From IMG/VR virus record IMGVR_UViG_2675903658_000001: DNA of 14,641 nucleotides; one strand, written 5' to 3'. The DNA comes from a virus (taxonomy: Duplodnaviria; Heunggongvirae; Uroviricota; Caudoviricetes). Numbering within the stretch: position 1 is the stretch's first letter; each line of letters starts with the position of its first letter. Under the pieces are notes generated by a model. That model ran no database searches, was not told the origin of the DNA, and saw only the letters and a list, made by a program, of their open reading frames with translations. This document shows positions 1 through 14,641 of the stretch, piece after piece. A program made the translations under genes and the position numbers.

Positions 1-172
1 GATGCCGGGCCTCCTCCCGGGTCACGGAAAGCGTCACCCTGTATGTTTTCAGGTCAGCATTCAGCCCTGCCGCCATACGCTGTGAGTACCCGTCACCAAA
101 ACGCACTTCACGCACCGATGGCTGCGAGTTCACCTCCATATCCGGCTTCACTTTCCAGCGAAAGGTTTTCAT
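1..172 (-). CDS. M: Minor tail protein M, second copy; only the first ~57 codons are in the window, gene continues past the left edge
   Basis: Minus-strand ATG at 172-170 overlaps the stop of the H-fragment (ATGA). Nt 1-172 are identical by eye to 5628-5799, the 5' end of the complete M gene. Translation begins MKTFRWKVKPDMEV. Confidence 0.8.
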   Translation of the reverse strand, partial: MKTFRWKVKPDMEVNSQPSVREVRFGDGYSQRMAAGLNADLKTYRVTLSVTREEARH

Positions 173-690
173 CGACCGCTCCCTGATAACAGACCGCCAT
201 CACGCAACTGCAGCCGGAGTTCATCCTGTGCCCCCTTGCGGGCCATGTCATACACCGCCTTCATCAGCTGCGACCCCGCCTGTCCGTTGATACCGTCGTT
301 CTGAATCACCACGTGATTGTTCTGATTAAAATTAATGCCTTCGGCCCGCCGCATCTGCGCCGGACTTCCGGCAGCACCCACATACCCCCCTTCCGCATAG
401 CCCCGCATCAGGCGGTACAGGTTCCCGACACCAATCCGGCTGGTTGCCTCCTTCGTGAAGACAAACTCCCCGCGGTGGACAATCCCCGCTGGCTCATATT
501 TGCCACCGGTTCCCGTAAATCCCCCGGTCGCGAAATGGAAGTTCGCCGCCGCAGCCTGAATGGCTGTACCGCCTGACGCTGATGCGCCGCCACCGGTAGC
601 CCCGCCAATGGCGCTGCCGATACTCCCGACAATCCCCACCATTGCCTGCTTAAGCAGAATTTCTGTCATCATGGATTTTTGTCGTGACAT
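169..690 (-). pseudogene. Tape measure protein H, C-terminal fragment (173-aa ORF equal to the last ~170 residues of H); likely remnant
   Basis: Six-frame ORF 169..690; the protein aligns with the C-terminus of the full H at 5796..8375 at roughly 93% identity, with no indels (1-675 colinear with 5628-6302). The ATG at 690-688 lies inside the 95-bp repeat and has no obvious Shine-Dalgarno. Confidence 0.7.
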
Positions 691-770
691 AAGAATAATT
701 ATCTATAGTTGATCTTCGTAACGCTCCCGCAGCTCCGCAACTCTGCGGGATTTTTTTATTCTTTTTACCC
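676..770 (+). repeat. Copy A of a ~95-bp element (candidate sRNA body plus terminator), direct repeat of 3350-3450
   Basis: Aligned by eye to 3350-3450 at roughly 85% identity. Both copies start at TTTTTGTCGTGA and end at GGGATTTTTTTATTCTTTTTACCC, and both begin (on the minus strand) exactly at the GGG-TAA that ends the upstream tail gene. Confidence 0.8.
725..765 (+). terminator. Intrinsic-terminator-like hairpin plus T-tract on the plus strand (copy A)
   Basis: Stem cccgcag (726-732) pairs with ctgcggg (743-749), 10-nt loop, followed by TTTTTTTATTCTTTTT (751-766). Confidence 0.55.
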
Positions 771-3101
771 AATCCGGCTCCCCTGGACAGTCCACTGACT
801 GCCGGTCCCCAGATAACGGGCAGATTTTTCCACCTGTGCCGTGTTCGTGATGCGTTTTTCTGAGAACCAGAATTCAAACTGTACCGTCGGGTCATACACC
901 GCAAGACGCGGGACCGCCGTTATCTGAAAATACCCCGGCGTCAGCTCAATGGTGGCGGGTTTTGCAGGCGCGTTAATCCGGAAGGTGGTGGTCGCAGGTT
1001 CGCCCTGCTGGCCGTAGCTGTTAATGGCCCGCACCGTCAGGGTGTATTCCCCCAGCGGCAGACCACTGAAACGGTGCTCCGTGTCTGCGGTGATGGCGGT
1101 GCTCACCAGACGGCTGTCTTCTCCGCTTCCGCTGGTCAGACGCAGACTGAAGCGCACACCCTTCACCACCCGCGGCGTGTCCCATTTCGCCTGTGCCAGA
1201 TACTGACCGTCAGCTGCACTCACCTCCACCGTCAGGTGCTGCACTGCCGGTGGGATAACGCTGTTCAGGCTGCCTGACTGCGGCTCAAAGCTGGCCCCGT
1301 TATCCACAATGGCTTCTTTTTCCGGTACGTGCTGCACCGCCGTGATGGCGAACGTGCCGTCCGTGTTTTCCCGAATGGAGACACAGCGGAACAGGCGACG
1401 ACGCAGTGACGGCAGGGAGAGTCCCCACACACCGTATGTCTCCACACCATCCGGCAGGGTGCTGACCTGTATCCGGTCAGGCGCGGGGTGTGCGGTGATG
1501 GCCACGCTCGCCGGCTTACCGCTGCCGTTAATCAGATTAACAGTGGCCGTGCCGGTCTCCGGCAGTGTCACCTCCCGGTCCAGCGTCAGGGTACGGCTGG
1601 CGGCATCGATGGACAGGACACGTCCGCCGGTCATGGTCCCGGCATAGTCGTTATCACAGATTTCAATGATGTCACCGGGTGTGTGACGCAGCCCCTGTGA
1701 CCCGAGCGTGAAATCCACCGTCTGCGTTTCCAGCAGTTCGGTCTTTATCACCCACAGCCCGGCACGGTGGGCCTGACCGCGGCTGGTACAGCCGAACGCG
1801 TCCATCTTCAGCAGGTTGCGTCCGTAGCGCAGTATGGCTTCCGGGTCTTCCACCAGTTCCGTGGAGGTCTGCCAGCCGTTCTGCGGGTCGGTGTAATTCA
1901 CCTCCACTGCCGTGTGCCGGTCCTTCAGGGCACTGAAGCTGTAGCGGAAACCCACGCCGTTATCATCCACCACCACATCGCTGTTGGTGTACGGCCACAC
2001 CACATCCGACGGACGGTCCTGAACGAACGTCAGCGTCTGGCCGTTCCATACCGGCATACAGCGCATCGCAGAGCAGAAATCACTGAGAACGTCCCACGCC
2101 TTACGCTGTTGTGCCAGGTACGCATTAAAGGTCATCCGCGGCTCGGTCCCCCCGAAACCATCCGGGACCGTCTGGTCGCAGTACTGCCCGATGGCATACA
2201 GCGCCCACTTGTCCACATCCGCCGCCCCCAGACGTTTTCCCATGCCGTAGCGCGGGTGAGTCAGCATGTCCCACAGACACCAGGCCGGGTTGTTGCTGTA
2301 TGCCGGTTTCAGGCTGCCGTCCCAGATACCACTGTACGTGCGTTTTTCCGGGTCATAGTTTGACGGCACCTGGATGATGCGACCGCGGATATGGTAGTTC
2401 ACCGTCATCTGCTGGCCGCCGAACTGCTCCGCATCCACCTGCAGCCCCACAATGGCCGTGTTCGGGTAGCACTGTTTCACATCGATGATTTCGGTGTATG
2501 ACGACCACAGCGTCTTATTCTGCAGCTGGTCCGTGGTGCTGTCCGCCGTCTCCCTGACCATCCGGATGTTAAAGGGCCGGGGAGGCAGATTATCCAGAAT
2601 CACCGAGGCCAGGAACTGCGAGGTGGTCTTGCCGTTAATGGTGACATCCTTTTCCGTCACCCAGCGGCCATTACGCTGTAACTGAATCAGAATCCGGACA
2701 GAGGAAGGATTACGGTCGCCCTTTGACGTGGTCTGCACCAGTGACTGCACCCCGAAGGTAACCCGCAGGCGGTCAATGTTCGCGGACGTAATGGTGCGCG
2801 TCACCGGTTTTGCCTTCGTCACTTCCACGCCCAGTCCGGTTTCAGCTCCGGAGGACTCAAAGCCTTCCGGTGGTGTCTGCTCCTGCTCCCCGGCACGCCA
2901 GACCGCAGTCACACCGTGTATCACGGGATTACCGTCCGTGTCCGTCAGCGGGGTTTTGTTCACCAGAATACTCTGCAGTCCCTTCACCGGACCTTCTATC
3001 GGTCCCTCACCAATCGCATCAATCACACTCATCATCTGCGTGGATTTGAGATTATCCTTCGCCTCACGAGGCGTGTGTGCCTTACCGCCACCTTTTCCCA
3101 T
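765..3101 (-). CDS. J: Tail tip / host-specificity protein J, N-terminal ~765 residues only; C-terminal receptor-binding part missing
   Basis: 778-aa ORF starting [22 protein letters not shown], matching lambda J residue for residue over much of its length as I recall it. RBS AGGGGAAGG 4 nt upstream. Similarity ends after ...RYLGT, then ~12 unrelated residues and a stop at the repeat junction. Lambda J is about 1132 aa. Confidence 0.85.
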
Positions 3102-3204
3102 ACAGCCTTCCCCTGAATAAATTAACCGCCACTTGCCATTCCGTACAGAAGTCGGATATCCTTCGCCCGAAAAGCATGAAACACATTTCTGCCATGCTAA
3201 AGAG

Positions 3205-3240
3205 AAACCCCGGTATCAGCAGATACCGGGGTTTTCTTTC
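3205..3240. terminator. Bidirectional intrinsic-terminator-like hairpin in the I-J intergenic insert
   Basis: Perfect 10-bp stem ccccggtatc (3208-3217) / gataccgggg (3222-3231) with loop agca, flanked by AAA on the 5' side and TTTTCTTTC on the 3' side, so it is followed by a U-rich tract on both strands. Confidence 0.65.
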
Positions 3241-3306
3241 ATGCCCACCGATAATCCTGTTGGTTAAAACCGGTAATGGCATAAAAATTCTGAATATCTT
3301 CACATT

Positions 3307-3334
3307 TTCACAAACTGACTGTGGCGCGTATAAT
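3307..3334 (+). promoter_or_regulatory. Near-consensus sigma70 promoter, antisense to the tail operon
   Basis: -35 TTCACA (3307-3312), 16-bp spacer, perfect -10 TATAAT (3329-3334); predicted start near 3341. It lies in the AT-rich insert, not in coding sequence. Confidence 0.55.
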
Positions 3335-3340
3335 TTCTCT

Positions 3341-3440
3341 GCGTTAATTTTTTTGTCGTGATATAAGAATAATTCCTTACACTTAATCTTCGTAACTCTC
3401 CCGCAGTTCCTGTCCGCGATCACTGCGGGATTTTTTTATT
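3341..3440 (+). ncRNA. Candidate ~100-nt small RNA, antisense to the 3' end of gene I
   Basis: Runs from the predicted start to the intrinsic terminator: 9-bp stem tcccgcagt (3399-3407) / actgcggga (3422-3430) then TTTTTTT (3431-3437). No plausible ORF. The body is conserved in the second copy at 676-770. Confidence 0.45.
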
Positions 3441-3450
3441 CTTTTTACCC
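3350..3450 (+). repeat. Copy B of the ~95-bp element, direct repeat of 676-770
   Basis: See copy A. Here the element abuts the stop codon of I (TAA at 3447-3445 on the minus strand). Confidence 0.8.
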
Positions 3451-4125
3451 CTGCCGCCCGATAACCACGACCTTTCCGCCCCCGCCTTCATCACGGGTGC
3501 TGATGTCCTGGGATATACGGCGGGAGCCAACCAGCATTTCCCCGTAAGGCACCGGCATCGGGTTCCCCTGGGCAATCATGTTATCCAGCGAGGAAAAGTA
3601 CGTGTTCTGTCTGCCGTTATCCGTTGCGCGGTAATCCGGTGTTTTTGCCTTCGGGGCCAGCATCTGGGCCACACCGCCCAGTATCATGCTGGCCCCCAGT
3701 GAAAACAGCATCGTGGTGGCAGAAAAACCGCCGGCACTCAGGGCTGTACCCCATAACACCATCGAGGCACCGGCCGTGAAGAAAGAGCCCACGATGGCTG
3801 CCGCCCCCAGCACAATCTGCAGTCCGCCCTTTCCGGCTCCGGCCAGTCGCGGCACAATGTGGATGACCGTTCCCTCACCCAGCTGTTCGTGAAGACGGGC
3901 GTACACCGCCTCCGGTGCCGTGTCATCACCGGCAATACGTATCTGGTACCAGCCTTCGTTCATCTGACGGCGAAAGCCCGGCACCTGTAACGACAGGGCA
4001 CGGATGGCTTCCGCTGCCGTGTTCACATACAGGCTGAGGCGGCGGCCAAATCGTTGCAAATCCCCGTGAAGGCAGATGCGTGCCAGTGGCGGTGACGCCA
4101 GACAGAATGCGTTCGTCGTTGCCAT
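3445..4125 (-). CDS. I: Tail tip assembly protein I (ubiquitin-like N-terminal domain family)
   Basis: 226-aa ORF starting MATTNAFCLASPPLARICLHGDLQRFGRR, lambda I-like. The start lies ~100 nt inside the 3' end of K in another frame, as in lambda. Confidence 0.9.
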   Translation of the reverse strand: MATTNAFCLASPPLARICLHGDLQRFGRRLSLYVNTAAEAIRALSLQVPGFRRQMNEGWYQIRIAGDDTAPEAVYARLHEQLGEGTVIHIVPRLAGAGKGGLQIVLGAAAIVGSFFTAGASMVLWGTALSAGGFSATTMLFSLGASMILGGVAQMLAPKAKTPDYRATDNGRQNTYFSSLDNMIAQGNPMPVPYGEMLVGSRRISQDISTRDEGGGGKVVVIGRQG

Positions 4126-4766: not shown

Positions 4767-4771
4767 TGGAT

Positions 4772-5470
4772 TTACTGCGAAAGTTTATTAATGGAAAGGA
4801 AACCGCCAAAATTAGCCACCATGCCGCGCATCTCACACCCGCGCATGCACTTGCTGCATCTGTCCTTACGGATATCCGTGGTGGGGTTGTCGAACTCATC
4901 CGCCACCGCAGGACCGTTATACCCGCATTCATCTCCCCGGTAATCCCACATACAGGTGTTCGCCAGCATGATGCGACCGGGAAACAGCGCCCCGTCCGTC
5001 TCGGTCGGTGTAGCCAGCACAAACGAGGCCGTCATGGCTGTCAGCTGCGACATCTGCTCCACCACCCAGCGGTCACTCAGCTCCTGCTCCGGGTCCGCCT
5101 CCGGATTGCCCGCAACGAAATTCACCGCATCCAGAAAACGGGCATACACCCGGCGGCGGACCACCGTGGCCCCCACCAGACTCTGCAGGTCTTCCGCCAT
5201 CCCGGTGACCAGACCGAACAGATTGGACACCGTCAGCGACGGTCTGGCACTGCTGCCCCGGCCGTTCATCTCAAAGCCGCTGCCGTCAATCGGGTATGCC
5301 TCATACTTACGCCCCTGCCAGGTGACCGGCTCCCCTTTTTCATTCAGCTCATTACAGAAAAAATACCGCTCACCGCCCTGTACCGTCAGGTCGATTTCCC
5401 AGAGTACCACCCGCGGTGACTGCTCTGACTTAACCGACTCGTTCAGACTTTCTTCGCGAATATCCTGCAT
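4772..5470 (-). CDS. L: Minor tail protein L
   Basis: 232-aa ORF, MQDIREESLNESVKSEQSPRVVLWEIDLT..., lambda L-like with the same length. Its start overlaps the M stop (TGATG). Confidence 0.93.
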   Translation of the reverse strand: MQDIREESLNESVKSEQSPRVVLWEIDLTVQGGERYFFCNELNEKGEPVTWQGRKYEAYPIDGSGFEMNGRGSSARPSLTVSNLFGLVTGMAEDLQSLVGATVVRRRVYARFLDAVNFVAGNPEADPEQELSDRWVVEQMSQLTAMTASFVLATPTETDGALFPGRIMLANTCMWDYRGDECGYNGPAVADEFDNPTTDIRKDRCSKCMRGCEMRGMVANFGGFLSINKLSQ

Positions 5471-5799
5471 CAGTTCACCACCTGCTTAAACTCCGCGCTG
5501 AACTCAACGCGCAACATCCCGACCCGCGCAGACCACCCGGCACAGGTCACCTTTATCTGCCGGTATGCATAGGGTGGCTTCCACAAAAATGCCTTCCAGC
5601 CCCCGTGCTCTGCCAGGAACGCTTCCAGATGCCGGGCCTCCTCCCGGGTCACGGAAAGCGTCACCCTGTATGTTTTCAGGTCAGCATTCAGCCCTGCCGC
5701 CATACGCTGTGAGTACCCGTCACCAAAACGCACTTCACGCACCGATGGCTGCGAGTTCACCTCCATATCCGGCTTCACTTTCCAGCGAAAGGTTTTCAT
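5470..5799 (-). CDS. M: Minor tail protein M
   Basis: 109-aa ORF, MKTFRWKVKPDMEV..., lambda M-like with the same length. ATGA overlap with the H stop. Confidence 0.93.
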   Translation of the reverse strand: MKTFRWKVKPDMEVNSQPSVREVRFGDGYSQRMAAGLNADLKTYRVTLSVTREEARHLEAFLAEHGGWKAFLWKPPYAYRQIKVTCAGWSARVGMLRVEFSAEFKQVVN

Positions 5800-8375
5800 C
5801 CACCGCTCCCTGATAACATACCGCCATCACGCAACTGCAGCCGGAGTTCATCCTGTGCCCCCTTGCGGGCCATCTCATACACCGCTTTCATCAGCTGCGG
5901 CCCTGCCCGCCCGTTGGGGCCGTCGTTCTGAATCACCACGTGATTGTTCTGATTAAAATTAATGCCTTCCGCCCGCCGCATCTGCGCCGGACTTCCGGCA
6001 CCGCCGACATAACCACCTTCCGCATAGCCCCGCATCAGGCGGTACAGATTGCCGACACCAATCCGGCTGGTCGCCTCCTTCGTGAAGACAAACTCCCCGC
6101 GATGAACAATCCCCGCAGGTTCATATTTACCCCCCGTCCCCGTAAATCCCCCGGTCGCGAAATGGAAGTTCGCCGCCGCAGCCTGAATGGCCGTCCCCGT
6201 GGAGGCAGACGCACCACCACCGAAAGCACCGCCAATGGCGCTGCCGATACTCCCGACTATCCCCACCATCGCCTGCTTCAGAAAAATCTCTGTCAGCATG
6301 GACAGCACAGAACGGGTGAAACCACGCCAGTTCTGTTCGCTGCCGGTCAGCATCGCTGCCATATTCTGTGCAATACCGTCAAAGGTCTGCGTGGCAGCAC
6401 TTTTTACCTGCGACATACTGTCCGTGGCACTCTCTTCCCACTCACTCCAGCCGGACCTGAGGCCTGCCATCCAGTTCCCGCGAAGCAGGTCTTCAGCCGC
6501 CCAGGTCTTTTTCTGCTCTGACATGACGTTATTCAGCGCCAGCGGATTATCGCCATACTGTTCCTTCAGGCGCTGTTCTGTGGCTTCCCGTTCTGCCTGC
6601 CGGTCAGTCAGCCCCCGGCTTTTCGCATCAATGGCGGCCCGTTTTGCCCGTTGCTGCTGTGCGAATTTATCCGCCTGCTGCGCCAGCGCGTTCAGGCGCT
6701 CCTGATACGTAACCTTGTCGCCAAGTGCAGCCAGCTGGCGTTTGTACTCCAGCGTCTCATCTTTATGCGCCAGCAGGGATTTCTCCTGTGCAGACAGCTG
6801 GCGACGTTGCGCCGCCTCCTCCAGTACCGCGAACTGACTCTCCGCCTTCCACAAATCCCGGCGCTGCTGGCTGATTTTCTCATTCGCTCCGGCATGCTTC
6901 TCCAGCGTCCGGAGTTCTGCCTGAAGCGTCAGCAGGGCAGCATGAGCACTGTCTTCCTGACGATCGCCCGCAGACACCTTCACGCCGGACTGTTTCGGCT
7001 TTTTCAGCGTCGCTTCATAGTCCTTTTTCGCCGCCGCCATCAGCGTGTTGTAATCCGCCTGCAGGATTTTCCCGTCTTTCAGGGCCTTATTCAGCTCTTC
7101 CTGCCGGTCAGTATATTTCTCCAGTGGCGTCAGCAGACGCTCATACGCCTTCTGCGCCTCTCCGGTATACTTCAGCTGTGACGCCTCACGCTCAGCCCGG
7201 TCCCTTGCCGCCAGTTCACCGGCTTTTTCCATATCCGACTGCAGCGTGGCCGCTGCCAGACCCAGACGGGCATTTTCCCGGTCATCCCATGCCCCCTGAA
7301 GGTTCGCACGAAAAGAGGAGGTCTTTCCCCGGCGCTGGCTCCGGCTCTGGTACCACTGCCATTTTTTATCCGCCTCATCAAATGCCTTCTGCGCACTGGC
7401 GAGCATATCCGCTGAGGATTCCGGACGACCGATATCCAGAATGGCATCCCACATCGATTTGAATGCCTTCCCTGTTTTATCCGCCCAGGTCTCCAGTGTT
7501 CCCATGTTTTCTTTCAGGCGACGGGTCTGCTCATCAAAGCCTTTCGTGGCGATATCGTTCGCCGCCTGTAAGGCTCCGGCCTCGTCTCCGGAACGCTGCA
7601 GTTGTGCAACATACGCAATCTGCTCTGCCGTCACGTTACGAAACTGGCGCGCCATCGCCATCAGTCCCGACGTCGGGTCAGTGGTCAGCTTCCCGAAGGC
7701 TTCAGCGACTTTATCCACCTCCACACCGGATGCAGACGCAAAACGCGCGACACTCTGGTTGATGGCATCAAACTGTTCACCACCACGCACACCGGCATTC
7801 ACCAGGGCTGCCAGTGACTCTCTCGCCTGGTTAAACGTCAGCCCTGCTGCCTGCCCGGCTCTTGAGAGAGTCAGCATACGATCGGCAGTCAGTCCGGACT
7901 GATTACCGGAAAGAACCAGGGTTTTATTAAACGCTGAAAGCGTGGAATCTCCCTGGTACCAGGCGTACACCAGCGCACCTGTCGCCACCGCCAGCGAGGT
8001 GACCCCGACCATCGGCAGGGTGATCGCACCGGCAAGCCCCCTGAACATGGGGATCATCCCGCCGAAGGAGTCCTTCACCTGACCGCCCTGTTGCAGCAGG
8101 ATCAGCCAGGGATTCTGACCACCGGCAAGCTGCGTGGCGATATCCGTAAACTGTGCGGGCAGGGTTCGCATGGCCGCTTTATACTGCCCGACGGAAATCC
8201 CTGCTTTTTGTGCAGCCAGCGCCTGGCGGCTCAGGCCCTGTTCAACAGCACTGGCGGTTTTTCTGGCGTCGGTATCCAGACCTGAAAAATGACGCCTTAC
8301 CCGGCTCATCTGCTCATCGAAACGGACAGCATCCAGACTAAGGTCAATAACAAGATCACCAACCGGCTGGGACAT
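5796..8375 (-). CDS. H: Tail tape measure protein H
   Basis: 859-aa ORF, MSQPVGDLVIDLSLDAVRFDEQMSRVRRHFSG..., lambda H-like (about 853 aa in lambda). RBS GGGAGG 8 nt upstream. Gly-rich hydrophobic C-terminal segment. Confidence 0.95.
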   Translation of the reverse strand: MSQPVGDLVIDLSLDAVRFDEQMSRVRRHFSGLDTDARKTASAVEQGLSRQALAAQKAGISVGQYKAAMRTLPAQFTDIATQLAGGQNPWLILLQQGGQVKDSFGGMIPMFRGLAGAITLPMVGVTSLAVATGALVYAWYQGDSTLSAFNKTLVLSGNQSGLTADRMLTLSRAGQAAGLTFNQARESLAALVNAGVRGGEQFDAINQSVARFASASGVEVDKVAEAFGKLTTDPTSGLMAMARQFRNVTAEQIAYVAQLQRSGDEAGALQAANDIATKGFDEQTRRLKENMGTLETWADKTGKAFKSMWDAILDIGRPESSADMLASAQKAFDEADKKWQWYQSRSQRRGKTSSFRANLQGAWDDRENARLGLAAATLQSDMEKAGELAARDRAEREASQLKYTGEAQKAYERLLTPLEKYTDRQEELNKALKDGKILQADYNTLMAAAKKDYEATLKKPKQSGVKVSAGDRQEDSAHAALLTLQAELRTLEKHAGANEKISQQRRDLWKAESQFAVLEEAAQRRQLSAQEKSLLAHKDETLEYKRQLAALGDKVTYQERLNALAQQADKFAQQQRAKRAAIDAKSRGLTDRQAEREATEQRLKEQYGDNPLALNNVMSEQKKTWAAEDLLRGNWMAGLRSGWSEWEESATDSMSQVKSAATQTFDGIAQNMAAMLTGSEQNWRGFTRSVLSMLTEIFLKQAMVGIVGSIGSAIGGAFGGGASASTGTAIQAAAANFHFATGGFTGTGGKYEPAGIVHRGEFVFTKEATSRIGVGNLYRLMRGYAEGGYVGGAGSPAQMRRAEGINFNQNNHVVIQNDGPNGRAGPQLMKAVYEMARKGAQDELRLQLRDGGMLSGSGG

Positions 8376-9227
8376 ATCTCACACCTCCCGGAATCCCCGC
8401 TGAAGCCATCATTAATGCGGCATCATCCACCATGACATCCGCCACATCCGCAGACGATAAAATATCGCGCCCTCCGTCCCCACCGAACCGGACGCCTCCG
8501 GCAAGTCCTGCCGCTTTCTGCATCAGCATTTTGTCCTCATCCGGCCTCTCCACCTGCTCTTCCTCATGCCGGGGGACAAGCAGACTGAAATCAGAGGGAT
8601 GCATATCCGGATCGCAAAAAAACAGGCTGAGTACAGCGTACGTCAGCCCGGAAAAATGCATATCCAGCTGGGTATCCTGAAAATAATGCGTGCGGTAAAA
8701 ACGGTGCCAGTCGGCATATTCGGTGGATGTCATCCCGGCAAGCATGGCGCGCCAGTCGGGTCTCCCCATCTCACGCGCCAGTCTGAGGGCAAAGTTCAGC
8801 TCGCCGTCGAAGACTTTCCCGCAGAAAAATCATCATCAGTCAGCGTGTTATTTTTCGCCACTTCAGTAATATCAGTATCCGGACGAACAGCTTCGATCAT
8901 CCCGGACAGGCACAACACCACGTCTTCCGCCCGGGCAATGGCATCGGCAGGCCAGGTGGTGAGCACTTCCTGCTCTATCTTCATCACGGCCTCATTCATT
9001 GACGGTGACTGCGTTTTCTGTGGATGGTTATGCCACAGGGACATCGCCACCAGAAACGCGCCGGTTCTGACGAGATCTTCCACACTTACCTGCAGGTTGC
9101 CGCTGGATTCTGCCTGTTCTGCACGCCGTTTCAGGAGGGCAAGATGCTCGATACGCTGCAGCGCAGACAATTCGGAAAGCGTGACAGACACACCGTTATA
9201 TTCAAATTGTTCTGTTTTCAGAAACAT
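8356..9227 (-). CDS. T: Tail assembly chaperone G-T fusion made by programmed -1 ribosomal frameshift (G frame to about 8814, then the T frame to the stop at 8356)
   Basis: The T-frame ORF (8356..8769, MGRPDWRAMLAGMTSTEYADWHRFY...) has no independent start context. It is open upstream into G, and the slippery heptamer sits at the junction. The post-shift reading VFDGELNFALRLAREMGRPDW matches the lambda gpGT junction. Confidence 0.85.
8796..9227 (-). CDS. G: Tail assembly chaperone G
   Basis: 143-aa ORF, MFLKTEQFEYNGVSVTLSELSALQRIEHLALLKRRAEQAES..., lambda G-like. RBS GGAGG 7 nt upstream. Confidence 0.93.
   Translation of the reverse strand: MFLKTEQFEYNGVSVTLSELSALQRIEHLALLKRRAEQAESSGNLQVSVEDLVRTGAFLVAMSLWHNHPQKTQSPSMNEAVMKIEQEVLTTWPADAIARAEDVVLCLSGMIEAVRPDTDITEVAKNNTLTDDDFSAGKSSTAS
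8814..8820 (-). other. -1 frameshift slippery heptamer G GGA AAG
   Basis: Plus strand ctttccc at 8814-8820 is the reverse complement of GGGAAAG, in the G frame as GCG GGA AAG, 7 codons before the G stop. This is the lambda G-T slippery sequence. Confidence 0.85.
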
Positions 9228-9240
9228 GTATTACCTCCGT

Positions 9241-9993
9241 TTACCCTGCAGCGCCCGCTTCAGTAACGGTGACTTCAGCCACTGCGGCGAACTGACCATT
9301 TCCGCTCACCACAGGGATCTGCACCTTACCTGTCGCCACGCCGTTTACCGTAATTGTCATATCTTTCACACTAATGGTGGCTTTCGACGGATCGGCGGAA
9401 ACCGCTCTGAACGTCTTGTCGGTTGCACTTTCCGGCTCAAAAGAAACCGTCAGGGTGGTTGTTTTCCCTTTTGCCACCGTACCGGATGTCGGCGTCACCT
9501 TAATCGCACTGACCGGCGTAATTTTGCTGCGTTCTTCCGCTACAGAAGGTTTACCCACGTTAGTGACTTTCACCGTGCGGGTGATCACTTCTTTCGCCGT
9601 CACGGCCTTACCGATACTGCTGACCCAGCCACGAAACACATCCACCGTGCCATTCGGAAAACGGATTTTATAGGCCCGGACATCGCCGCTTTCAAACCAG
9701 CCTATAAGCCCTTTCTGACCTTCCTCTCCCGGTTTCCAGGCCAGCGTAAAACTGGTATCACCTGCAGATTTCTGTCCCTGCCCGGTCGCGGTCCAGTCCG
9801 CGTCTTCATCATCCAGGTAGTTATCATCGTAGGGTTCTGCCGTCATCTCGCCCGGCGTCAGATCCTTCACCTTAGCCAGTCGCTGCCAGTCATCGTCTGA
9901 CAACGGGTTTGCATAAGCATCACCCTTGCCGTTGTAAACCCACAGAGTGGTACCGGCACCTTTTACCGGCTCAAGGGGATTTGGTGTTGCCAT
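9241..9993 (-). CDS. V: Major tail tube protein V with a C-terminal Ig-like domain
   Basis: 250-aa ORF, lambda V-like. RBS GAGGA. The C-terminal ~90 aa are Thr/Val-rich beta-strand sequence typical of the Ig-like decoration domain. Confidence 0.93.
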
Positions 9994-10000
9994 ATCGTCC

Positions 10001-10396
10001 TCACATCTCGTATGTAATGGAATAAGTCAGATCTGCAGAACTCCATAACGCCATATCGTCATCACGACGATACTCATAGCCCTGCGTAACCATCGTGGTA
10101 ATCAGTCCTGCCAGTGCCGGGATCGCGGTCATCGCCGGGTAAATCCGGCTTTCCATCCACTGATCAAGCTCTGAATCCGGTACCTGTGCCGGTAAAAACA
10201 CCTCAATATGCAGCGTGGCCCGCCAGGTATCTGCATCCAGCTCTTCACCGGTATACTCTGCATCCGTCAGATAAACCGCGATCGCAGGAAAATCCTCTTC
10301 GTCAAAAACAACGGGGCGACCATCAAACAGCGTCGCCCCGTGTTCATGCTGCTCGAGTGCATCCAGCACTGCGGCACGAATGTCAGTGTGTTTCAT
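10001..10396 (-). CDS. U: Tail terminator protein U
   Basis: 131-aa [36 protein letters not shown]..., lambda U-like with the same length. ATGA overlap with the Z stop. Confidence 0.94.
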
Positions 10397-10926
10397 CGTT
10401 TTATTGCAATCCTCAGTTGTTGTTTCAGCGCGGATGCCAGTTCTTTGGGCAGGCGTTCACGCCGGATACGGTCAACATTCTCATCAAACGCCTGTTTCAG
10501 TGGGGCCGCCATCGGGATTTTCACCACATCAATGGGGTAACGGTTTTTCCCGGCCACACGCTGCATGACATGCCAGCGACCGTTTTTTAATCGCTGAATG
10601 AATGCCCGCTGATACCGATGCTGACCGGCTTTAAGTATGCTGTTCGGGCGACGGCCCAGCATCCTGATCCCCAGCTTAATCACTGGGAGATCACCGCGGT
10701 TAACGATAATTTTTGCGTTCGGATTTCTGACCGTGGCCCGTTTCAGTCTGGACCGTTCCTTAACCAGTTTCCGGCGTACCTTTGTCTCCCGGGCAACCTG
10801 TGATGAAGACTGATTAATCGCCGTTGTGGCCACGCGGTTAATCGTCATTGCTGAAGCCGCCGGAATGGCGTTTTTACGAACCCGGCTCAGATTGTCAATC
10901 GCCTGATCAAGCCCTTTTATCGCCAT
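10393..10926 (-). CDS. Z: Tail completion protein Z
   Basis: 177-aa ORF, MAIKGLDQAIDNLSRVRKNAIPAASAMTINRVA..., lambda Z-like; the C-terminus ...[22 protein letters not shown] is conserved. Confidence 0.93.
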   Translation of the reverse strand: MAIKGLDQAIDNLSRVRKNAIPAASAMTINRVATTAINQSSSQVARETKVRRKLVKERSRLKRATVRNPNAKIIVNRGDLPVIKLGIRMLGRRPNSILKAGQHRYQRAFIQRLKNGRWHVMQRVAGKNRYPIDVVKIPMAAPLKQAFDENVDRIRRERLPKELASALKQQLRIAIKR

Positions 10927-10941
10927 AATTTCACCCTGCGT

Positions 10942-11295
10942 TTATCGTCGCCGGTTAACTGCGGGTGGTTGCCCACGGTTGAGCCAGAGATAACAGCTGC
11001 CCCCGTCATCCGGAGAAACACGATCCACCCAGAACATCTCGCCGTTAATGGTCAGCGTGTCACCACGCCGCACGGCACGCACCGTATCCGTCCGCACAAA
11101 TAATGACGGGCTGCTTCCTTCAATACGGACCCCGCCACCGGCAAAACCCAGCGACTCCGGATCGTCAAAAACCCCCTGAACTTCGCTTCCACGTTGTGCT
11201 CCGGAGGTGAACTGCGCACAGAGCCCCATCACTTCAACGATCGTGCTGTCCACCCCGGCGAGGGCAGCATCAAAGGCATTCTGAAAATCACGCAT
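10942..11295 (-). CDS. FII: Head-tail joining protein FII
   Basis: 117-aa ORF, MRDFQNAFDAALAGVD...VDRVSPDDGGSCYLWLNRGQPPAVNRRR, lambda FII-like with the same length. Confidence 0.94.
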   Translation of the reverse strand: MRDFQNAFDAALAGVDSTIVEVMGLCAQFTSGAQRGSEVQGVFDDPESLGFAGGGVRIEGSSPSLFVRTDTVRAVRRGDTLTINGEMFWVDRVSPDDGGSCYLWLNRGQPPAVNRRR

Positions 11296-11362
11296 GTTCA
11301 GCCGTTCCGTGCTGTATCATGGCTGTTGCCAGTGGTGATGGCACCATAACACGCATGCCCCG

Positions 11363-11671
11363 TTACGTCAGTTCAACGGGACGGCCTGTCTCCGGGCAAT
11401 ACCCCATTACTTGCAGGCACTTCCGTCCCCGGACGGCTTTAACATCATCCGGAGCATCCGTGTTGTTCAACTGCTCACCATCGTCTGTGTGATTTTGATC
11501 AGCCCCGCTCTCATCAGAGTGCATAATGCCCTCCGGGGAAACAGCAAGCTCCTCTTCCCACTCAGACACACGTTGAGCAATATCCGCAGCACTCCCCGAC
11601 ATATCCGCCTCGCGCCCCAGCAGGCCAGCCAGTTGACGAAGACGATTCAGATTTTCTTCTTTTGTTGCCAT
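11363..11671 (-). CDS. FI: DNA-packaging / head assembly protein FI
   Basis: Start reassigned to the second Met of track ORF 11363..11704 (MATKEENLNRLRQ...), which has a strong SD AGGAGG 5 nt upstream. The upstream ATG lies inside the terminator hairpin loop. Acidic middle region as in lambda FI. Confidence 0.85.
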   Translation of the reverse strand: MATKEENLNRLRQLAGLLGREADMSGSAADIAQRVSEWEEELAVSPEGIMHSDESGADQNHTDDGEQLNNTDAPDDVKAVRGRKCLQVMGYCPETGRPVELT

Positions 11672-11683
11672 CTCAGCCTCCTG

Positions 11684-11716
11684 TGAAAAAAGACACGGGG
11701 GCATTTCGCCCCCGCT
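11684..11716 (-). terminator. Intrinsic-terminator-like hairpin between E and FI (candidate attenuator)
   Basis: On the minus-strand RNA: 7-bp GC stem (11696-11702 / 11708-11714) with a 5-nt loop, then UGUCUUUUUUCA (11695-11684), then the FI SD. Confidence 0.5.
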
Positions 11717-11722
11717 CCCGGA

Positions 11723-12751
11723 TTATTTCACCTGTACCACCACAAACTCATCCGGATCCGGCAGCACCATCAGCGGTGCGGACTGCGTCATGGTGAATTC
11801 ACGGGCCGGATCGCCCACAGTCAGCCAGTGTTTCGGATAACGGGAAGAGGCCACCACACCTTCGGACAACGCCTGCGCATCCTGAATGGCACCATAGCAA
11901 CGAATGCCCTCTGCTGCCGTATTCCCCAGGACCAGTGTGCCCTCCGGCAGATAACGTTTTTCGGTACCGTCCTCTGCCACATAAGACGTTTTCGCCACCA
12001 CAATGGCCAGATCGCCGTAATACCCCTTGAAGGACACCACTGCGCCCAGGTCTTTCACTGCCGTTTCGAGTTGTGAATTTGAGCCGCGACGGGTATCCAG
12101 TTTTTCGCGGAACAGCTTAAAGCCATTCAGCAGACGCCAGACCGTACCGTCCATAATGGCGATATTCACAAGGCCGCTGGCCTGATCGCAGTAGAGGTCA
12201 ATATCATGCGTCGGATCAAACGTATCACGGTCCTGCTCAGACCATTTTTTACCGTCAGCCTGCTCAATGTTATTTCCTTCAGAGCGCCCGAAATCCACCT
12301 CGACAGTATCAAACTGATCCCCTTCCATGGTGTATTTGCCATACAGCACGGCATTCACCGCCTGCATTTCTTCCACCTGGACAATGGCGTGCTCTTCCTG
12401 TTTGAGGTTATCGGTAATGATACGCAGACGACGGTAGGCTGGGTCGTTCAGCTGAGCCGGATCTTCACCAGGAAGGCGCTCAACCGCCTGCTGGTAATTA
12501 AATTCGTGTTTGGGCTTGACGTAGCCCGGACGTAACACGCGGGTTTCACCACCGCGATGGCGAAGCACTTTTCCTTCAACGATCGGGGAGACATAGGCCG
12601 CCACCGGCGTTTTTCCGGTAATTTTGTCCAGCATCACCTCTTCGGTGTGGAAATTCACCGTGCGGCGGAAAAACAGCTCCAGAAACAGCGCACGGAATTT
12701 AACTTTTTGTTCGGTATAACCGAGTAACTGGCGGGTCGTAAACAATCCCAT
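11723..12751 (-). CDS. E: Major capsid protein E
   Basis: 342-aa ORF, MGLFTTRQLLGYTEQKVKFRALFLELFFRR...SAPLMVLPDPDEFVVVQVK, lambda E-like (341 aa in lambda). RBS AGGA 8 nt upstream. Confidence 0.96.
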   Translation of the reverse strand: MGLFTTRQLLGYTEQKVKFRALFLELFFRRTVNFHTEEVMLDKITGKTPVAAYVSPIVEGKVLRHRGGETRVLRPGYVKPKHEFNYQQAVERLPGEDPAQLNDPAYRRLRIITDNLKQEEHAIVQVEEMQAVNAVLYGKYTMEGDQFDTVEVDFGRSEGNNIEQADGKKWSEQDRDTFDPTHDIDLYCDQASGLVNIAIMDGTVWRLLNGFKLFREKLDTRRGSNSQLETAVKDLGAVVSFKGYYGDLAIVVAKTSYVAEDGTEKRYLPEGTLVLGNTAAEGIRCYGAIQDAQALSEGVVASSRYPKHWLTVGDPAREFTMTQSAPLMVLPDPDEFVVVQVK

Positions 12752-12779
12752 AAATCAGTTCCTTTCATTCAGAAATCAG

Positions 12780-12801
12780 TCAGGCCACCATGGTGGCCTG
12801 A
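12780..12801 (-). other. Perfect 22-bp palindrome in the D-E intergenic region (RNA hairpin or protein site)
   Basis: tcaggccaccatggtggcctga equals its own reverse complement; it sits about 28 nt upstream of the E start and 8 nt after the D stop. Confidence 0.5.
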
Positions 12802-12808
12802 TAACGTG

Positions 12809-13156
12809 TTACGGCAGCGCCGCGTGACTCAGGGCTGTACCGGCAAAGGCATTTGCCTTTTTGTGTTCATCCACACTGTCAGGCCAGCGGATTGCCTCCG
12901 TCGCAAAGGTCCCCGACTTGTAATAGGTCAGCACCGTCTCTGTGCCTTCAAGCGGCAGTACCAGTATGCCAACCGCACTACCGGCTTTCTGTCCATCCCA
13001 GACAACCAGTTTCCCGCTGGCTTCATCCAGCATCAGGGGCGTCAGTGCCGGTGTTGCCTGAGAAATCCCGCTGCTGCCTGTGGCGGTATGAGCCGGATCA
13101 TTACCGGCAAAAATACGTACTTCTGCACGTTGTTCAGTGATGGTTTTCGTTACCAT
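12809..13156 (-). CDS. D: Head decoration protein D
   Basis: 115-aa ORF containing NDPAHTATGSSG...TPLMLDEASGKLVVWDG...YKSGTF, lambda D-like. RBS GAGG 8 nt upstream. Confidence 0.93.
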   Translation of the reverse strand: MVTKTITEQRAEVRIFAGNDPAHTATGSSGISQATPALTPLMLDEASGKLVVWDGQKAGSAVGILVLPLEGTETVLTYYKSGTFATEAIRWPDSVDEHKKANAFAGTALSHAALP

Positions 13157-13192
13157 ATTGTTAAAACCTCGTATTGATGTTCAGCACTGACT

Positions 13193-13795
13193 TCATGGCA
13201 TGGCCATGAGCATTTTCACGTCCGCATCACCGTCTTCTGACGTCTGTGACACGCCCCCCTGGACCGCTGCCGGTGAATGGTTCGCCATGAAATGTTCAAA
13301 CAGGGCGGTTGTGGATGCAGAGACCGGTTCTGCTTTATCCGGCGATGAGGACAGAATGTCGCGGGCAGCCTCCACCGTCATTCCGGGAAACGCCGCCAGT
13401 TTTTCAGCCTGCGCCTCAGCCCCTTTTGCCTCATCCAGAGCCATGATCTGATCACGGAGTGAGGGTCCGGCATCCGCCAGTGGTGCAGCCGCCAGGATCG
13501 GGCGGGCTTTTTCCACCGTCATCTCCGGCATCGCCGCCAGCGTTGCCGCCAGTTGTTCACGACCTTTAGCCTCTTCACACGCCATAATGCGATCGGCTTC
13601 ACTCTGCGTGGATGCCACCGGCTGCTGTGGTGCTGCCGCGGTCAGAATCGCCCGGGCCTGTTCAACGCTCATGCCCTGTTGTCCTGCCAGCATCGTGGCA
13701 AGGTGTTCACGTCCTTTCGCTTCCTGACACGTCAGGATCCCCATCACTCGCTGGTTCTCCTGCGCGGCAGCTTCCGTTGCAGTTAATTGCGGCAT
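13193..13795 (-). CDS. Nu3: Nu3-like scaffolding protein, made by in-frame internal initiation within C
   Basis: Internal ATG at 13795-13793 (MPQLTATEAAAQ...) is preceded by a strong SD AGGAGG 4-5 nt upstream, embedded in the C frame. It corresponds in position to lambda Nu3, which is nested in the 3' third of C. It contains three tandem ~48-aa repeats. Confidence 0.65.
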   Translation of the reverse strand: MPQLTATEAAAQENQRVMGILTCQEAKGREHLATMLAGQQGMSVEQARAILTAAAPQQPVASTQSEADRIMACEEAKGREQLAATLAAMPEMTVEKARPILAAAPLADAGPSLRDQIMALDEAKGAEAQAEKLAAFPGMTVEAARDILSSSPDKAEPVSASTTALFEHFMANHSPAAVQGGVSQTSEDGDADVKMLMAMP

Positions 13796-14641
13796 AGTGC
13801 CTCCTGTATCATGTGTGTTCAGCGCCGCAGCCATCACGCTGATGGCATCCGACGCATTGATTAATTCATCCGCCAGCCCGGCCTCAATGCCGGACTGACC
13901 TTCAAAAACGGCGGCCTCTGTTCCCGTGACTGCATCAACAGACAGACCGGTATACATCGCCACTTTTTCGGCAAACATCCGGCGCGCCGCATCAATCCGC
14001 TGCTGCATGTCCTGGCGAACCTCTTCCGGCAACGCTTCAAACTGATTGCCATCCACCTTGTGCGCCCCTGAGTAAATCAGCGTGATATCCACACCGGCCT
14101 GCGCCAGATGACCGGCATAGCTGACATGGCTCATCATCACGCCAATGGAGCCGATACGGGATGTCTGGGTAACCAGCCGTCGGGAGCAGGCCGACGCCAG
14201 CAGCATGGCTGCAGAACAGGCCGTGTCATTGCACAGTGCCCAGACCGGCTTCTGCTGACGGAGTCGGTAAATCATGTCAGCACAGTCAAACGCACCGGCG
14301 GCCTGCCCGCCCGGACTGTCAATGTCCAGCAGTACACCCCGCACCTGGCTATCCGCCATTGCCTGCTGAAGACAGGCGACAATGCCGTCATAGCCTGTCA
14401 TTCCGGAAAATGGCCGCATACCCCCCAGCCGGTGCACCAGCGTGCCTGTCACCGGCAGTACAGCAATACCGTTCACCACCCGGTAAACACGGGCCGGTCG
14501 TTTACCTCCGGCCATGTACTCGTCCGTTTCAGCCAGCATTCCGGGAGCATCAAGCTGTACCTGCTGTTGTGGTACCGAAAGACTTGCTGCCCCCATCTCG
14601 CGCCCGAGCGCGCAAAAGAAAACCCGCGCATAGGCGGGCTC
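13193..14641 (-). CDS. C: Capsid assembly protease C (S49/ClpP-like), 5' end beyond the right edge of the window
   Basis: The frame is open to the window edge; the upstream codons read EPAYARVFFCAL, matching lambda C near residue 25. The body has a lambda C-like core (VNGIAVLPVTG...VWALCNDTACSAAMLLASA...). Confidence 0.92.
   Translation of the reverse strand, partial: EPAYARVFFCALGREMGAASLSVPQQQVQLDAPGMLAETDEYMAGGKRPARVYRVVNGIAVLPVTGTLVHRLGGMRPFSGMTGYDGIVACLQQAMADSQVRGVLLDIDSPGGQAAGAFDCADMIYRLRQQKPVWALCNDTACSAAMLLASACSRRLVTQTSRIGSIGVMMSHVSYAGHLAQAGVDITLIYSGAHKVDGNQFEALPEEVRQDMQQRIDAARRMFAEKVAMYTGLSVDAVTGTEAAVFEGQSGIEAGLADELINASDAISVMAAALNTHDTGGTMPQLTATEAAAQENQRVMGILTCQEAKGREHLATMLAGQQGMSVEQARAILTAAAPQQPVASTQSEADRIMACEEAKGREQLAATLAAMPEMTVEKARPILAAAPLADAGPSLRDQIMALDEAKGAEAQAEKLAAFPGMTVEAARDILSSSPDKAEPVSASTTALFEHFMANHSPAAVQGGVSQTSEDGDADVKMLMAMP
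13313..13762 (-). repeat. Three tandem, diverged ~48-codon repeats within the C/Nu3 C-terminal region
   Basis: The protein repeats share the motif EAKGRE.LA..LA..P.MTVE.AR.IL.AAP (ILTCQEAKGREHLATMLAGQQGMSVEQARAILTAAAP / IMACEEAKGREQLAATLAAMPEMTVEKARPILAAAP / IMALDEAKGAEAQAEKLAAFPGMTVEAARDILSSSP). Lambda has one copy as I recall. Confidence 0.7.

What the first reader, a model, noticed from the sequence alone, without database searches (positions are those of the whole stretch)
13313..13795. Nu3-like scaffold with a triplicated ~48-aa motif and a strong internal RBS
The in-frame internal start at 13795 has an AGGAGG SD embedded in the C coding sequence, consistent with the nested C/Nu3 arrangement of lambda. 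The C-terminal region then carries three tandem copies of a motif (EAKGRE-LA-LA-P-MTVE-AR-IL-AAP) that I recall as a single copy in lambda C/Nu3. The DNA copies are diverged, so this is not a recent slippage event. Repeat number in a scaffold or delivery domain could affect procapsid assembly.
Basis: partly seen in the sequence, partly recalled or inferred. Interest (0 to 1): 0.5.

Follow-up and report, generated by a model that had tools for sequence, protein, structure and literature searches.

The report
Phage 21-type scaffold with known triple repeat
This is the head protease/scaffold gene of a phage 21-like prophage of E. coli, and its three-fold repeated motif is real and old but was already marked as the "Tri boxes" in the 1993 phage 21 sequence and sits in about a third of complete E. 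coli genomes, so it is ordinary.

Summary
On the minus strand, 13193-14641 encodes a lambda-C-like S49 prohead protease that is cut at its 5' end by the window edge. An in-frame ATG at 13795 follows AGGAGG (13805-13800) and gives a nested 200-aa Nu3-like scaffold. That scaffold holds three tandem ~40-45-aa units at 13759-13628, 13600-13481 and 13456-13340. The units are 46-59% identical in protein and 52-67% in DNA, and they score z = 12-16 against shuffles.

It is not new. The gene is 95% identical to phage 21 genes 5/6 (GenBank M81255). That record already annotates the nested gene 6, its RBS and "Tri1/Tri/Tri3 box" repeats at exactly these positions. The gene occurs in 1,940 of 5,426 complete E. 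coli genomes. Gifsy-1, Trabulsiella and Providencia relatives also carry three positionally orthologous units.

Lambda and most distant relatives have one unit, of the unit-1 type. Two- and four-copy variants exist.

AlphaFold models each unit as a confident small three-helix bundle (pLDDT 92), with the units joined by flexible linkers. No Pfam, NCBIfam or PDB family covers it.

The most likely role is a repeated protein-contact module of the scaffold, also carried by the protease so that it co-assembles into the procapsid. The binding partner is inferred, not shown.

The parts
13193..14641 (-). Lambda-C / phage 21 gene 5-type prohead protease-scaffold ORF. It is cut at its 5' end by the window edge, and the stop codon is at 13193-13195.
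   Evidence: phrog_53 head maturation protease, E = 2.7e-207. 95.2% nt identity to phage 21 gene 5. The frame is open up to 14641 and aligns with the lambda C N-terminus.
13820..14263 (-). S49 (SppA-type) serine peptidase domain.
   Evidence: Pfam PF01343, E = 1.4e-35, residues 112-259. PDB SppA 3rst, 2e-16. The Ser in CSAA and the Lys in HKVDG align with lambda C S166 and K218.
13800..13805 (-). Shine-Dalgarno AGGAGG of the nested scaffold gene.
   Evidence: Read directly. Annotated as the RBS of gene 6 in M81255 and OL657228. An SD-like hexamer (at least 4 of 6 matches to AGGAGG) with a 4-nt spacer in 109 of 111 distinct complete homologues; the other two have 5- and 7-nt spacers.
13193..13795 (-). 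Nested in-frame ORF of 200 aa plus stop: the Nu3 / phage 21 gp6-type scaffolding protein.
   Evidence: ATG at 13795 in frame. Same length as phage 21 gp6, with 181 of 200 residues identical. phrog_8399 head scaffolding protein is matched in 3 stretches.
13628..13759 (-). Repeat unit 1 (ENQRVMGILTCQEAKGREHLATMLAGQQGMSVEQARAILTAAAP). This is the type that lambda has as its only copy.
   Evidence: HMM domain hit. Overlaps the Tri1 box of M81255, which maps to 13728-13625. Clusters with the single units of lambda-type proteins. The single-unit model has pLDDT 92.2 and is a three-helix bundle.
13481..13600 (-). Repeat unit 2 (EADRIMACEEAKGREQLAATLAAMPEMTVEKARPILAAAP).
   Evidence: HMM domain hit. 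Overlaps the second Tri box, which maps to 13588-13478. Clusters with unit 2 of phage 21, Gifsy-1, L133, Providencia and Trabulsiella.
13340..13456 (-). Repeat unit 3 (LRDQIMALDEAKGAEAQAEKLAAFPGMTVEAARDILSSSP).
   Evidence: HMM domain hit. Overlaps the Tri3 box, which maps to 13447-13334. Clusters with unit 3 of phage 21, Gifsy-1 and Trabulsiella.
13196..13339 (-). C-terminal tail after the repeats: a predicted helix (TALFEHFMANH), then a low-confidence stretch ending in LMAMP.
   Evidence: F166 and M170 are nearly invariant and the ending is conserved among three-copy homologues. Model helix at 160-172, then pLDDT below 50.
12809..13156 (-). Downstream head decoration gene (lambda D / phage 21 shp type), given as context.
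   Evidence: phrog_49, 1.8e-30. Same gene order in phage 21 and in E. coli AR_0086.
11723..12751 (-). Downstream major capsid protein gene (lambda E / phage 21 gene 7 type). It is the presumed assembly partner of the scaffold.
   Evidence: phrog_2353 / phrog_29 major head protein. 95% aa identity to phage 21 gp7 and 62% to lambda E.

Best explanation
The region is the 3' part of the phage 21-type gene 5/6 pair, the homologue of lambda C/Nu3, in an E. coli lambdoid prophage.

**What the sequence shows.**
- The long frame encodes an S49 serine prohead protease.
- A strong internal SD-ATG in the same frame gives a 200-aa scaffolding protein identical to the protease's C-terminal part.
- That shared part consists of a 12-aa leader, three ancient tandem copies of a ~40-45-aa module (the "Tri boxes" of phage 21) joined by short Pro/Ala/Gln-rich linkers, and a conserved C-terminal tail.

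**What is predicted.** Each module folds on its own into a small three-helix bundle, so the protein resembles beads on a string.

**What is inferred by analogy with lambda C/Nu3 and other nested protease-scaffold genes.**
- The scaffold is made in excess from the internal ATG with its perfect SD. In phage 21, gene 5 itself starts with GTG.
- The scaffold co-polymerises with the major capsid protein around the portal.
- The few protease molecules enter the procapsid because they carry the same modules.
- The protease then destroys the scaffold.
- The repeated modules are the protein-contact elements, used for self-association and/or binding to the inner face of the capsid protein. Three of them would make each chain multivalent.

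The copy number is not fixed in the family. It ranges from 1 to 4 and changes by unequal recombination between units.
For: **Identity.**
- 95.2% nt identity to phage 21 genes 5/6 and 99% to several E. coli phages.
- The same RBS, nested gene and Tri boxes are annotated in M81255.
- PF01343 and phrog_53 are matched.
- The gene order is portal, this gene, decoration, capsid.

**Internal start.**
- An SD-like hexamer plus ATG, 4 nt apart in 109 of 111 distinct complete homologues (5 and 7 nt in the other two). 94 of them have a perfect AGGAGG that uses GGA for the first Gly, which from my own knowledge is a rare codon in E. coli.
- Local RNA folding is no stronger than in shuffles (z = 0.76).
- Phage 21 gene 5 starts with GTG.

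**Repeats.**
- z = 12-16 against shuffles.
- The units are positionally orthologous across phage 21, Gifsy-1 and Trabulsiella, and for units 1 and 2 also Providencia.
- L130 is a unit 1/2 chimera, and P0029 has four copies with units 2-4 closest to each other.

**Fold.**
- The single-unit model has pLDDT 92.2 and pTM 0.73, with three helices.
- The full model has pTM 0.28 with confident units and weak linkers.

**Lambda background.** Nu3 is the essential scaffold and C the protease. Interactions Nu3-E, Nu3-Nu3, Nu3-C and Nu3-B are reported (PMC3224144; PMC10695390).
Against: - No experiment or structure shows what the Tri unit binds. The GenBank note itself says "function unknown".
- Lambda assembles the same kind of T=7 head with one unit. 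Natural variants with 2 and 4 units exist. Three copies are therefore not required for the mechanism.
- Expression from the internal ATG is inferred from sequence conservation and from the lambda precedent. It was not measured for this element.
- Part of the SD conservation could reflect the conserved Gly-Gly dipeptide.
Confidence: 0.85

Rival explanations
1. The modules are not capsid-binding elements. They are spacer or volume-filling segments, or degradation cassettes, whose linkers carry the cleavage sites for the S49 protease. Capsid binding would reside in the conserved C-terminal tail, as in herpesvirus and phi29 scaffolds where the extreme C-terminus binds the capsid protein.
For: - A conserved tail (FxxFM ... 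LMxMP) follows the repeats in all three-copy proteins.
- Copy number varies from 1 to 4 without an obvious change of head type.
- The residues conserved within a unit (EAKGRE, PGMT, A..IL..AP) look structural rather than surface-specific.
Against: - The unit is the only element shared by all 1,818 profile hits, including distant ones.
- The tail is not detectably conserved between phage 21-type and lambda proteins (local score z = 0.3).
- A folded and strongly conserved domain is unusual for a mere spacer.
Confidence: 0.2
2. The modules bind the portal (gp4 / lambda B) or mediate scaffold oligomerisation only. In that case they would serve nucleation at the portal vertex rather than shell contacts.
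For: The lambda literature reports that Nu3 is required for B incorporation, and that Nu3-Nu3 and C-B interactions exist (PMC3224144).
Against: A Nu3-E two-hybrid interaction is also reported in the same paper. Nothing here distinguishes the partners.
Confidence: 0.15
3. The internal ATG is not used, and only the full-length protease-scaffold fusion is made. The AGGAGG would then be a by-product of the Gly-Gly codons.
For: There are no expression data for this element. The SD overlaps a conserved GG dipeptide.
Against: - ATG preceded by an SD-like hexamer in 111 of 111 distinct homologues, with a 4-nt spacer in 109. The first Gly always uses GGA, and SD variants keep the purine core.
- Lambda Nu3 is an established separate essential product overlapping C (Shaw and Murialdo 1980, cited in PMC8508860; PMC10695390).
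- Gene 6 is annotated in both phage 21 records.
Confidence: 0.04
4. The triplication is a recent slippage event or an assembly artefact of this window.
For: None beyond the tandem arrangement itself.
Against: - The units are only 52-67% identical in DNA and TRF finds nothing.
- The same three units occur in independent phage and genome records, including different genera.
Confidence: 0.01

Closest known systems
Phage 21 genes 5 and 6 (head-tail preconnector gp5 / scaffold gp6; GenBank M81255 and OL657228)
   Same: - 95.2% nt identity over the whole gene.
- Same internal RBS and ATG, and the same 200-aa nested product (181 of 200 residues identical).
- Same three Tri boxes at the same positions.
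- Same flanking shp and gene 7.
   Different: There are 19 amino-acid differences in the nested product, concentrated at the end of unit 3. The window copy is part of a chromosomal prophage of E. coli that is 98-99.6% identical to many RefSeq genomes.
Lambda C / Nu3 (S49 prohead protease with nested scaffolding protein)
   Same: - Homologous protease domain (57% aa identity overall).
- Same SD-ATG position (lambda TCAGGAGGGCGAATG at C Met309).
- Same unit-1-type motif.
- Same place in the head operon.
   Different: - Lambda has one unit, preceded by a 48-aa low-complexity linker, and a 131-aa nested product from Met309.
- Here the linker is 12 aa, there are three units, and the product is 200 aa.
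- No significant similarity of the C-terminal tails was detected.
Gifsy-1 (Salmonella) gpC homologue STM2605
   Same: Three units that are positionally orthologous to those here, the same internal AGGAGG-ATG, and the same tail.
   Different: Only 67% aa identity. It has small indels in the linkers and a longer C-terminal end.
P22-type scaffolding protein with a C-terminal helix-turn-helix coat-binding domain, and herpesvirus UL26/UL26.5 nested protease-scaffold genes
   Same: Functional analogy only. These scaffolds have a small helical element that contacts the capsid protein. In herpesviruses the protease shares its C-terminal part with a more abundant in-frame scaffold. This comparison rests on my own knowledge of these systems.
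Tandem three-helix-bundle binding modules of bacterial surface proteins (protein A Z/affibody, GA albumin-binding domain, BibA, Embp)
   Different: 6-18% sequence identity and generic fold similarity only. There is no evidence of common descent.

Membership tests
Lambda C/Nu3-type nested prohead protease-scaffold gene | S49 (SppA-like) serine peptidase domain with a Ser/Lys dyad | tested here: met
   PF01343, E = 1.4e-35. SppA structures match at 2e-16. Ser and Lys align with lambda C S166 and K218. Catalysis itself was not tested.
Lambda C/Nu3-type nested prohead protease-scaffold gene | In-frame internal translation start giving a protein identical to the C-terminal part of the protease | tested here: met
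   AGGAGG, 4 nt, then ATG at 13805-13793, in frame. It is homologous to the lambda site. An SD-like hexamer plus ATG is present in 111 of 111 homologues, 4 nt apart in 109. Actual translation is not testable here.
Lambda C/Nu3-type nested prohead protease-scaffold gene | Position between the portal gene and the decoration and major capsid genes of a lambdoid head operon | tested here: met
   The decoration and capsid genes lie downstream in the window. The portal gene lies upstream in the collinear E. coli prophage L147 and in phage 21.
Lambda C/Nu3-type nested prohead protease-scaffold gene | Scaffold is needed for procapsid assembly and is removed by the protease | not testable with these tools
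   Known for lambda only (PMC3224144, PMC10695390).
Phage 21 gene 5/6 with Tri boxes | Three tandem Tri repeat regions inside the nested gene | tested here: met
   The Tri boxes of M81255 map to window 13728-13625, 13588-13478 and 13447-13334. They coincide with the three HMM units.
Phage 21 gene 5/6 with Tri boxes | Close sequence identity over the whole gene | tested here: met
   95.2% nt over 1404 of 1404 bases. 95% aa.
P22-type scaffolding protein coat-binding helix-turn-helix | Sequence or fold similarity to the P22 gp8 C-terminal domain | tested here: not met
Curated protein domain families (Pfam-A, NCBIfam) | A model that covers the repeat unit | tested here: not met
   No Pfam hit in residues 281-467 even at E = 1; the only match reaching into the nested part is a weak DUF7518 hit (E = 0.09, residues 226-280) that ends before unit 1. 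No NCBIfam hit for the 200-aa product. Only PHROG clusters match: phrog_8399, phrog_1999 and phrog_53.

The most novel reading that the evidence does not exclude
The Tri unit is an uncharacterised domain with no Pfam model. It is a three-helix-bundle module that is the true capsid-contact (or portal-contact) element of lambda-type scaffolds. Its copy number (1 to 4, changed by unequal recombination between units) would set the valency of each scaffold chain. That valency would in turn affect the kinetics or fidelity of T=7 procapsid assembly, with lineage-specific co-adaptation to the capsid protein (phage 21 gp7 and lambda E are 62% identical).
Probability: 0.25. Interest if true: 0.4.

Novelty: already known. 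Interest (0 to 1): 0.12.

Why it matters
It matters little as a discovery. The nested gene, its ribosome-binding site and the three repeats have been in GenBank for phage 21 since the early 1990s, and the gene is one of the commonest prophage genes in E. coli.

Three residual points have some value.
- The function of the Tri unit is still marked "unknown". No curated domain model or solved structure covers it.
- It is predicted with high confidence to be an independent three-helix bundle.
- Natural 1-, 2-, 3- and 4-copy versions offer a ready-made series for testing how scaffold valency affects lambda-type procapsid assembly.

Tried and rejected
- **Tandem Repeats Finder on 13100-14000.** It reported no array. 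The repeats are visible only at the protein level. The repeat finder gave only short fragments spaced 141-156 nt apart.
- **Foldseek of the whole 200-aa model against PDB.** Nothing below E = 2, as expected for a model with pTM 0.28.
- **PDB sequence search.** Only SppA matches for the protease part.
- **Pfam and NCBIfam.** No model covers the unit.
- **Homology of the lambda C-terminal tail with the phage 21-type tail.** The local alignment score was not significant (z = 0.3), so I make no claim.
- **CII-binding-site annotation inside gene 6 in OL657228.** The TTGYN6TTGY pattern has 2 matches in the window against 2.1 expected by chance, so I dismissed it.
- **RNA structure around the internal start.** Not different from shuffles (z = 0.76).
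- **Promoter scan of 12700-14641.** No sites found.
- **Literature.** Smith and Feiss 1993 and the Medina/Catalano gpC and gpNu3 papers are not held in the library. What the authors wrote about the Tri boxes could be read only from the GenBank feature notes.
- **First homologous-protein search.** It returned mostly fragments. I therefore counted copy number on loci fetched from genome and viral contig collections instead.

Full report
**1. What is in the sequence**

The minus strand of the window carries a lambdoid head-tail operon. The ORF listed as 13193..14596 (467 aa) is a lambda-C-type prohead protease:
- Pfam Peptidase_S49 matches at E = 1.4e-35 over residues 112-259.
- PHROG 53 "head maturation protease" matches at E = 2.7e-207.
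- SppA structures match at 2e-16.

The frame stays open up to the last base of the window. There it reads EPAYARVFFCALGRE, which aligns with the N-terminal region of lambda C and phage 21 gp5. The gene is therefore cut by the window edge.

The in-frame ATG at 13795 is preceded by AGGAGG (13805-13800) with a 4-nt spacer. It opens a nested 200-aa product.

**2. The repeats are real**

The nested product holds three tandem units:
- ENQRVMGILTCQEAKGREHLATMLAGQQGMSVEQARAILTAAAP
- EADRIMACEEAKGREQLAATLAAMPEMTVEKARPILAAAP
- LRDQIMALDEAKGAEAQAEKLAAFPGMTVEAARDILSSSP

They lie at nt 13759-13628, 13600-13481 and 13456-13340. Pairwise local scores are 99, 70 and 105 against shuffle means of 21-25 (z = 16, 12 and 16; 0 of 2000 shuffles reach them).

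The cores are 46-59% identical in protein and 52-67% in DNA. About half of the identical residues use different codons. TRF sees no DNA array. A lambda-Nu3-sized PHROG profile (phrog_8399, 131 positions) matches in three separate stretches.

**3. It is phage 21 gene 5/6, and the repeats are already annotated**

Megablast against phage records gives 21 records. The gene is 99.3% identical to Escherichia phage PhiR12_2_star and 95.2% identical over its full length to phage 21 (M81255 and OL657228).

The M81255 record ("Bacteriophage 21 head gene operon") annotates the following:
- gene 5;
- a nested gene 6 with a putative RBS at the same AGGAGG;

Mapped onto the window, these boxes are 13728-13625, 13588-13478 and 13447-13334. 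They are the same three units. The 2022 complete phage 21 genome annotates the pair as "capsid protease/scaffolding protein" and "scaffolding protein". The nested products of the window and of phage 21 are both 200 aa and share 181 residues.

The gene is present in 1,940 of 5,426 complete E. coli genomes, with a median of two places per genome.

**4. Copy number across the family**

I fetched 142 loci that encode relatives, 62 from one-genome-per-species contigs and 80 from viral contigs. I counted units with an HMM built from seven units. The 142 sequences scored were these relatives, the annotated phage loci fetched earlier, and the window.

| Units | Sequences | Examples |
|---|---|---|
| 3 | 87 | window, phage 21, many E. 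coli/Shigella/E. albertii prophages, Gifsy-1-type Salmonella, Trabulsiella guamensis, Providencia alcalifaciens |
| 1 | 43 | lambda, relatives from Enterobacter, Kluyvera, Klebsiella, Citrobacter, Serratia, Erwinia, an Aeromonadaceae MAG |
| 2 | 2 | L130, Buttiauxella L010 |
| 0 | 10 | mostly fragments |

An E. coli cluster (P0029, 48 members) has four units.

A neighbour-joining tree of units gives these results:
- Units 1, 2 and 3 each group by position across phage 21, Gifsy-1, L133 and Trabulsiella, and units 1 and 2 also for Providencia. The triplication is therefore old.
- Lambda's single unit is of the unit-1 type, which carries the ENxR(I/V)MGIL extension.
- The two-unit L130 protein has a chimeric unit 1/2 (ENQRVMGILTCQEAKGREQLA|ATLAAMPEMTVEKARPILAASP). 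This is the signature of unequal recombination between units.
- Units 2-4 of the four-copy protein are each other's closest relatives, which indicates a recent duplication.

A profile of the unit was searched against 1.84 billion representative proteins. It finds 1,818 proteins at E ≤ 0.001. Among the best 150, most have one stretch, about twenty have two, and five have three or more. One distant two-unit protein (P0151) has units closest to each other, separated by a PPTPPTPPTPP linker, which suggests an independent duplication.

The multi-copy form is thus rare in terms of sequence diversity. It is very common in E. coli and Salmonella prophages.

**5. The internal start**

In all 111 distinct complete homologues, an in-frame ATG preceded by an SD-like hexamer lies upstream of unit 1. 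The spacer is 4 nt in 109 of them, and 5 and 7 nt in the other two. The hexamer is a perfect AGGAGG in 94, and CGGAGG, TGGAGG, AGGAGT or similar in the rest. The first Gly codon in the SD is always GGA. From my own knowledge this is a rare codon in E. coli, which argues for constraint at the RNA level beyond the Gly-Gly dipeptide.

The nested product is 120-140 aa with a 36-57-aa leader in one-unit proteins. It is about 200 aa with a 12-14-aa leader in three-unit proteins.

The RNA around the start folds no better than shuffles. Phage 21 gene 5 itself starts with GTG after GAGGAG, which fits higher output from the internal start.

A caveat on the lambda reference: RefSeq NC_001416 annotates nu3 from 5132 (C Met239, 201 aa). 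The conserved SD-ATG is at 5342 (C Met309, TCAGGAGGGCGAATG). Met239 has a poor SD, and the aligned residue is Ile in the window and in phage 21. The family-wide evidence favours the Met309-equivalent site, which is also the one the phage 21 records use.

**6. Structure**

The 200-aa product, modelled with 29 aligned sequences, gives mean pLDDT 68.8 and pTM 0.28. It shows three separate helical units (pLDDT 72-85), low-confidence linkers, a helix at 160-172 and a poorly defined end.

Unit 1 alone, with 31 aligned units, gives pLDDT 92.2 and pTM 0.73. It has a long helix (2-17), a short turn at EAKG, a second helix (26-33), a PGMT-type loop and a third helix (40-49).

**7. How it most likely works**

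Shown here:
- the identity of the gene;
- the nested frame and its conserved start signal;
- the three old units.

Predicted: each unit is an independent three-helix bundle.

Inferred from lambda:
- Nu3 is the essential scaffold.
- C is the protease that removes it.
- Nu3 interacts with E, B, C and itself (PMC3224144; PMC10695390; the overlap of C and Nu3 from Shaw and Murialdo 1980, cited in PMC8508860).

By that analogy, the scaffold is made in excess from the internal start and co-assembles with the capsid protein. The protease is carried in because it has the same C-terminal modules. The modules serve as protein-contact elements.

Which partner they bind is not known: capsid protein, portal or other scaffold chains. 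The alternative that the conserved C-terminal tail is the capsid-binding element, with the units acting as spacers or cleavage cassettes, cannot be excluded. Lambda works with one unit, and 2- and 4-unit versions exist. Three copies are therefore not a mechanistic requirement.

**8. Verdict**

The feature is already known and annotated (phage 21 Tri boxes) and widespread. Novelty: already known. Interest is low.

The modest additions made here are:
- the positional orthology of the three units across genera;
- the 1-4 copy range, with recombination signatures;
- the confident three-helix-bundle prediction for a unit that has no curated family;
- the mismatch between the RefSeq lambda nu3 start and the conserved start.

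Noticed in passing
window 1-770: The left end of the window is a mosaic. Bases 771-14641 are collinear with an E. coli AR_0086 prophage (98.2%), and the J-like tail-tip ORF 765..3101(-) stops at about 778 of about 1,230 residues. Bases 676-770 are 100% identical to that prophage's I-J intergenic piece. Bases 1-675 are 100% identical to its tape-measure C-terminus and M start, and 92.9% identical to the window's own 5628-6302. ORF 169..690(-) is a tape-measure C-terminal fragment. This is either a rearranged or defective prophage, or a chimeric contig end.
   Followed up: partly
window 3102-3444: There is a gap of about 340 bp between the I-like tail assembly gene (3445..4125) and the J-like gene. 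It holds a 113-aa GTG ORF (3082..3423, minus strand) with no PHROG hit. The same gap is left unannotated in the RefSeq genome.
   Followed up: no
L003 (lambda NC_001416) 2333 versus 2543: RefSeq annotates lambda nu3 from 5132 (C Met239, 201 aa, poor SD). The SD-preceded ATG conserved in all homologues is at 5342 (C Met309, 131 aa). Met239 is Ile in the window and in phage 21.
   Followed up: partly
L016-L025, L035-L036, L045, L049-L052 and others (genome contigs): Loci with a C protein identical to lambda's, or matching the query exactly as lambda does, occur on short low-coverage contigs of unrelated taxa. Examples are Neobacillus, Chromatium, Kitasatospora, Shewanella, Oceanobacillus, Leeuwenhoekiella, Paenibacillus and an Akkermansia MAG. 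This is most likely lambda DNA contamination of those assemblies.
   Followed up: no
P0029; L130 2408-3796; P0151: Copy-number variants of the unit exist. P0029 is a four-unit E. coli protein with 48 cluster members. L130 is a two-unit protein whose first unit is a unit 1/2 chimera. P0151 is a distant two-unit protein with a PPTPPTPPTPP linker that looks like an independent duplication.
   Followed up: partly
window 13543-13556 and 13777-13790 (+ strand): There are two matches to TTGYN6TTGY, the pattern annotated as "CII binding site" inside gene 6 of the phage 21 genome record OL657228. The count in the window equals the chance expectation (2 against 2.1).
   Followed up: yes
window 12780-12801 (- strand): A perfect 9-bp GC-rich hairpin (TCAGGCCACCATGGTGGCCTGA) followed by a T-rich stretch lies in the short gap between the decoration gene and the major capsid gene. 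It is terminator-like or an RNA-processing or stability element.
   Followed up: no
P0136 (844 aa): A database protein joins the N-terminal part of a lambda tape-measure-like sequence to the complete lambda C. It is probably a rearranged lambda vector or an assembly artefact.
   Followed up: no
window 8356-9227 (- strand): The G-like (8796..9227) and T-like (8356..8769) tail chaperone ORFs are arranged as in the lambda G/GT programmed frameshift pair. phrog_32165 spans both.
   Followed up: no
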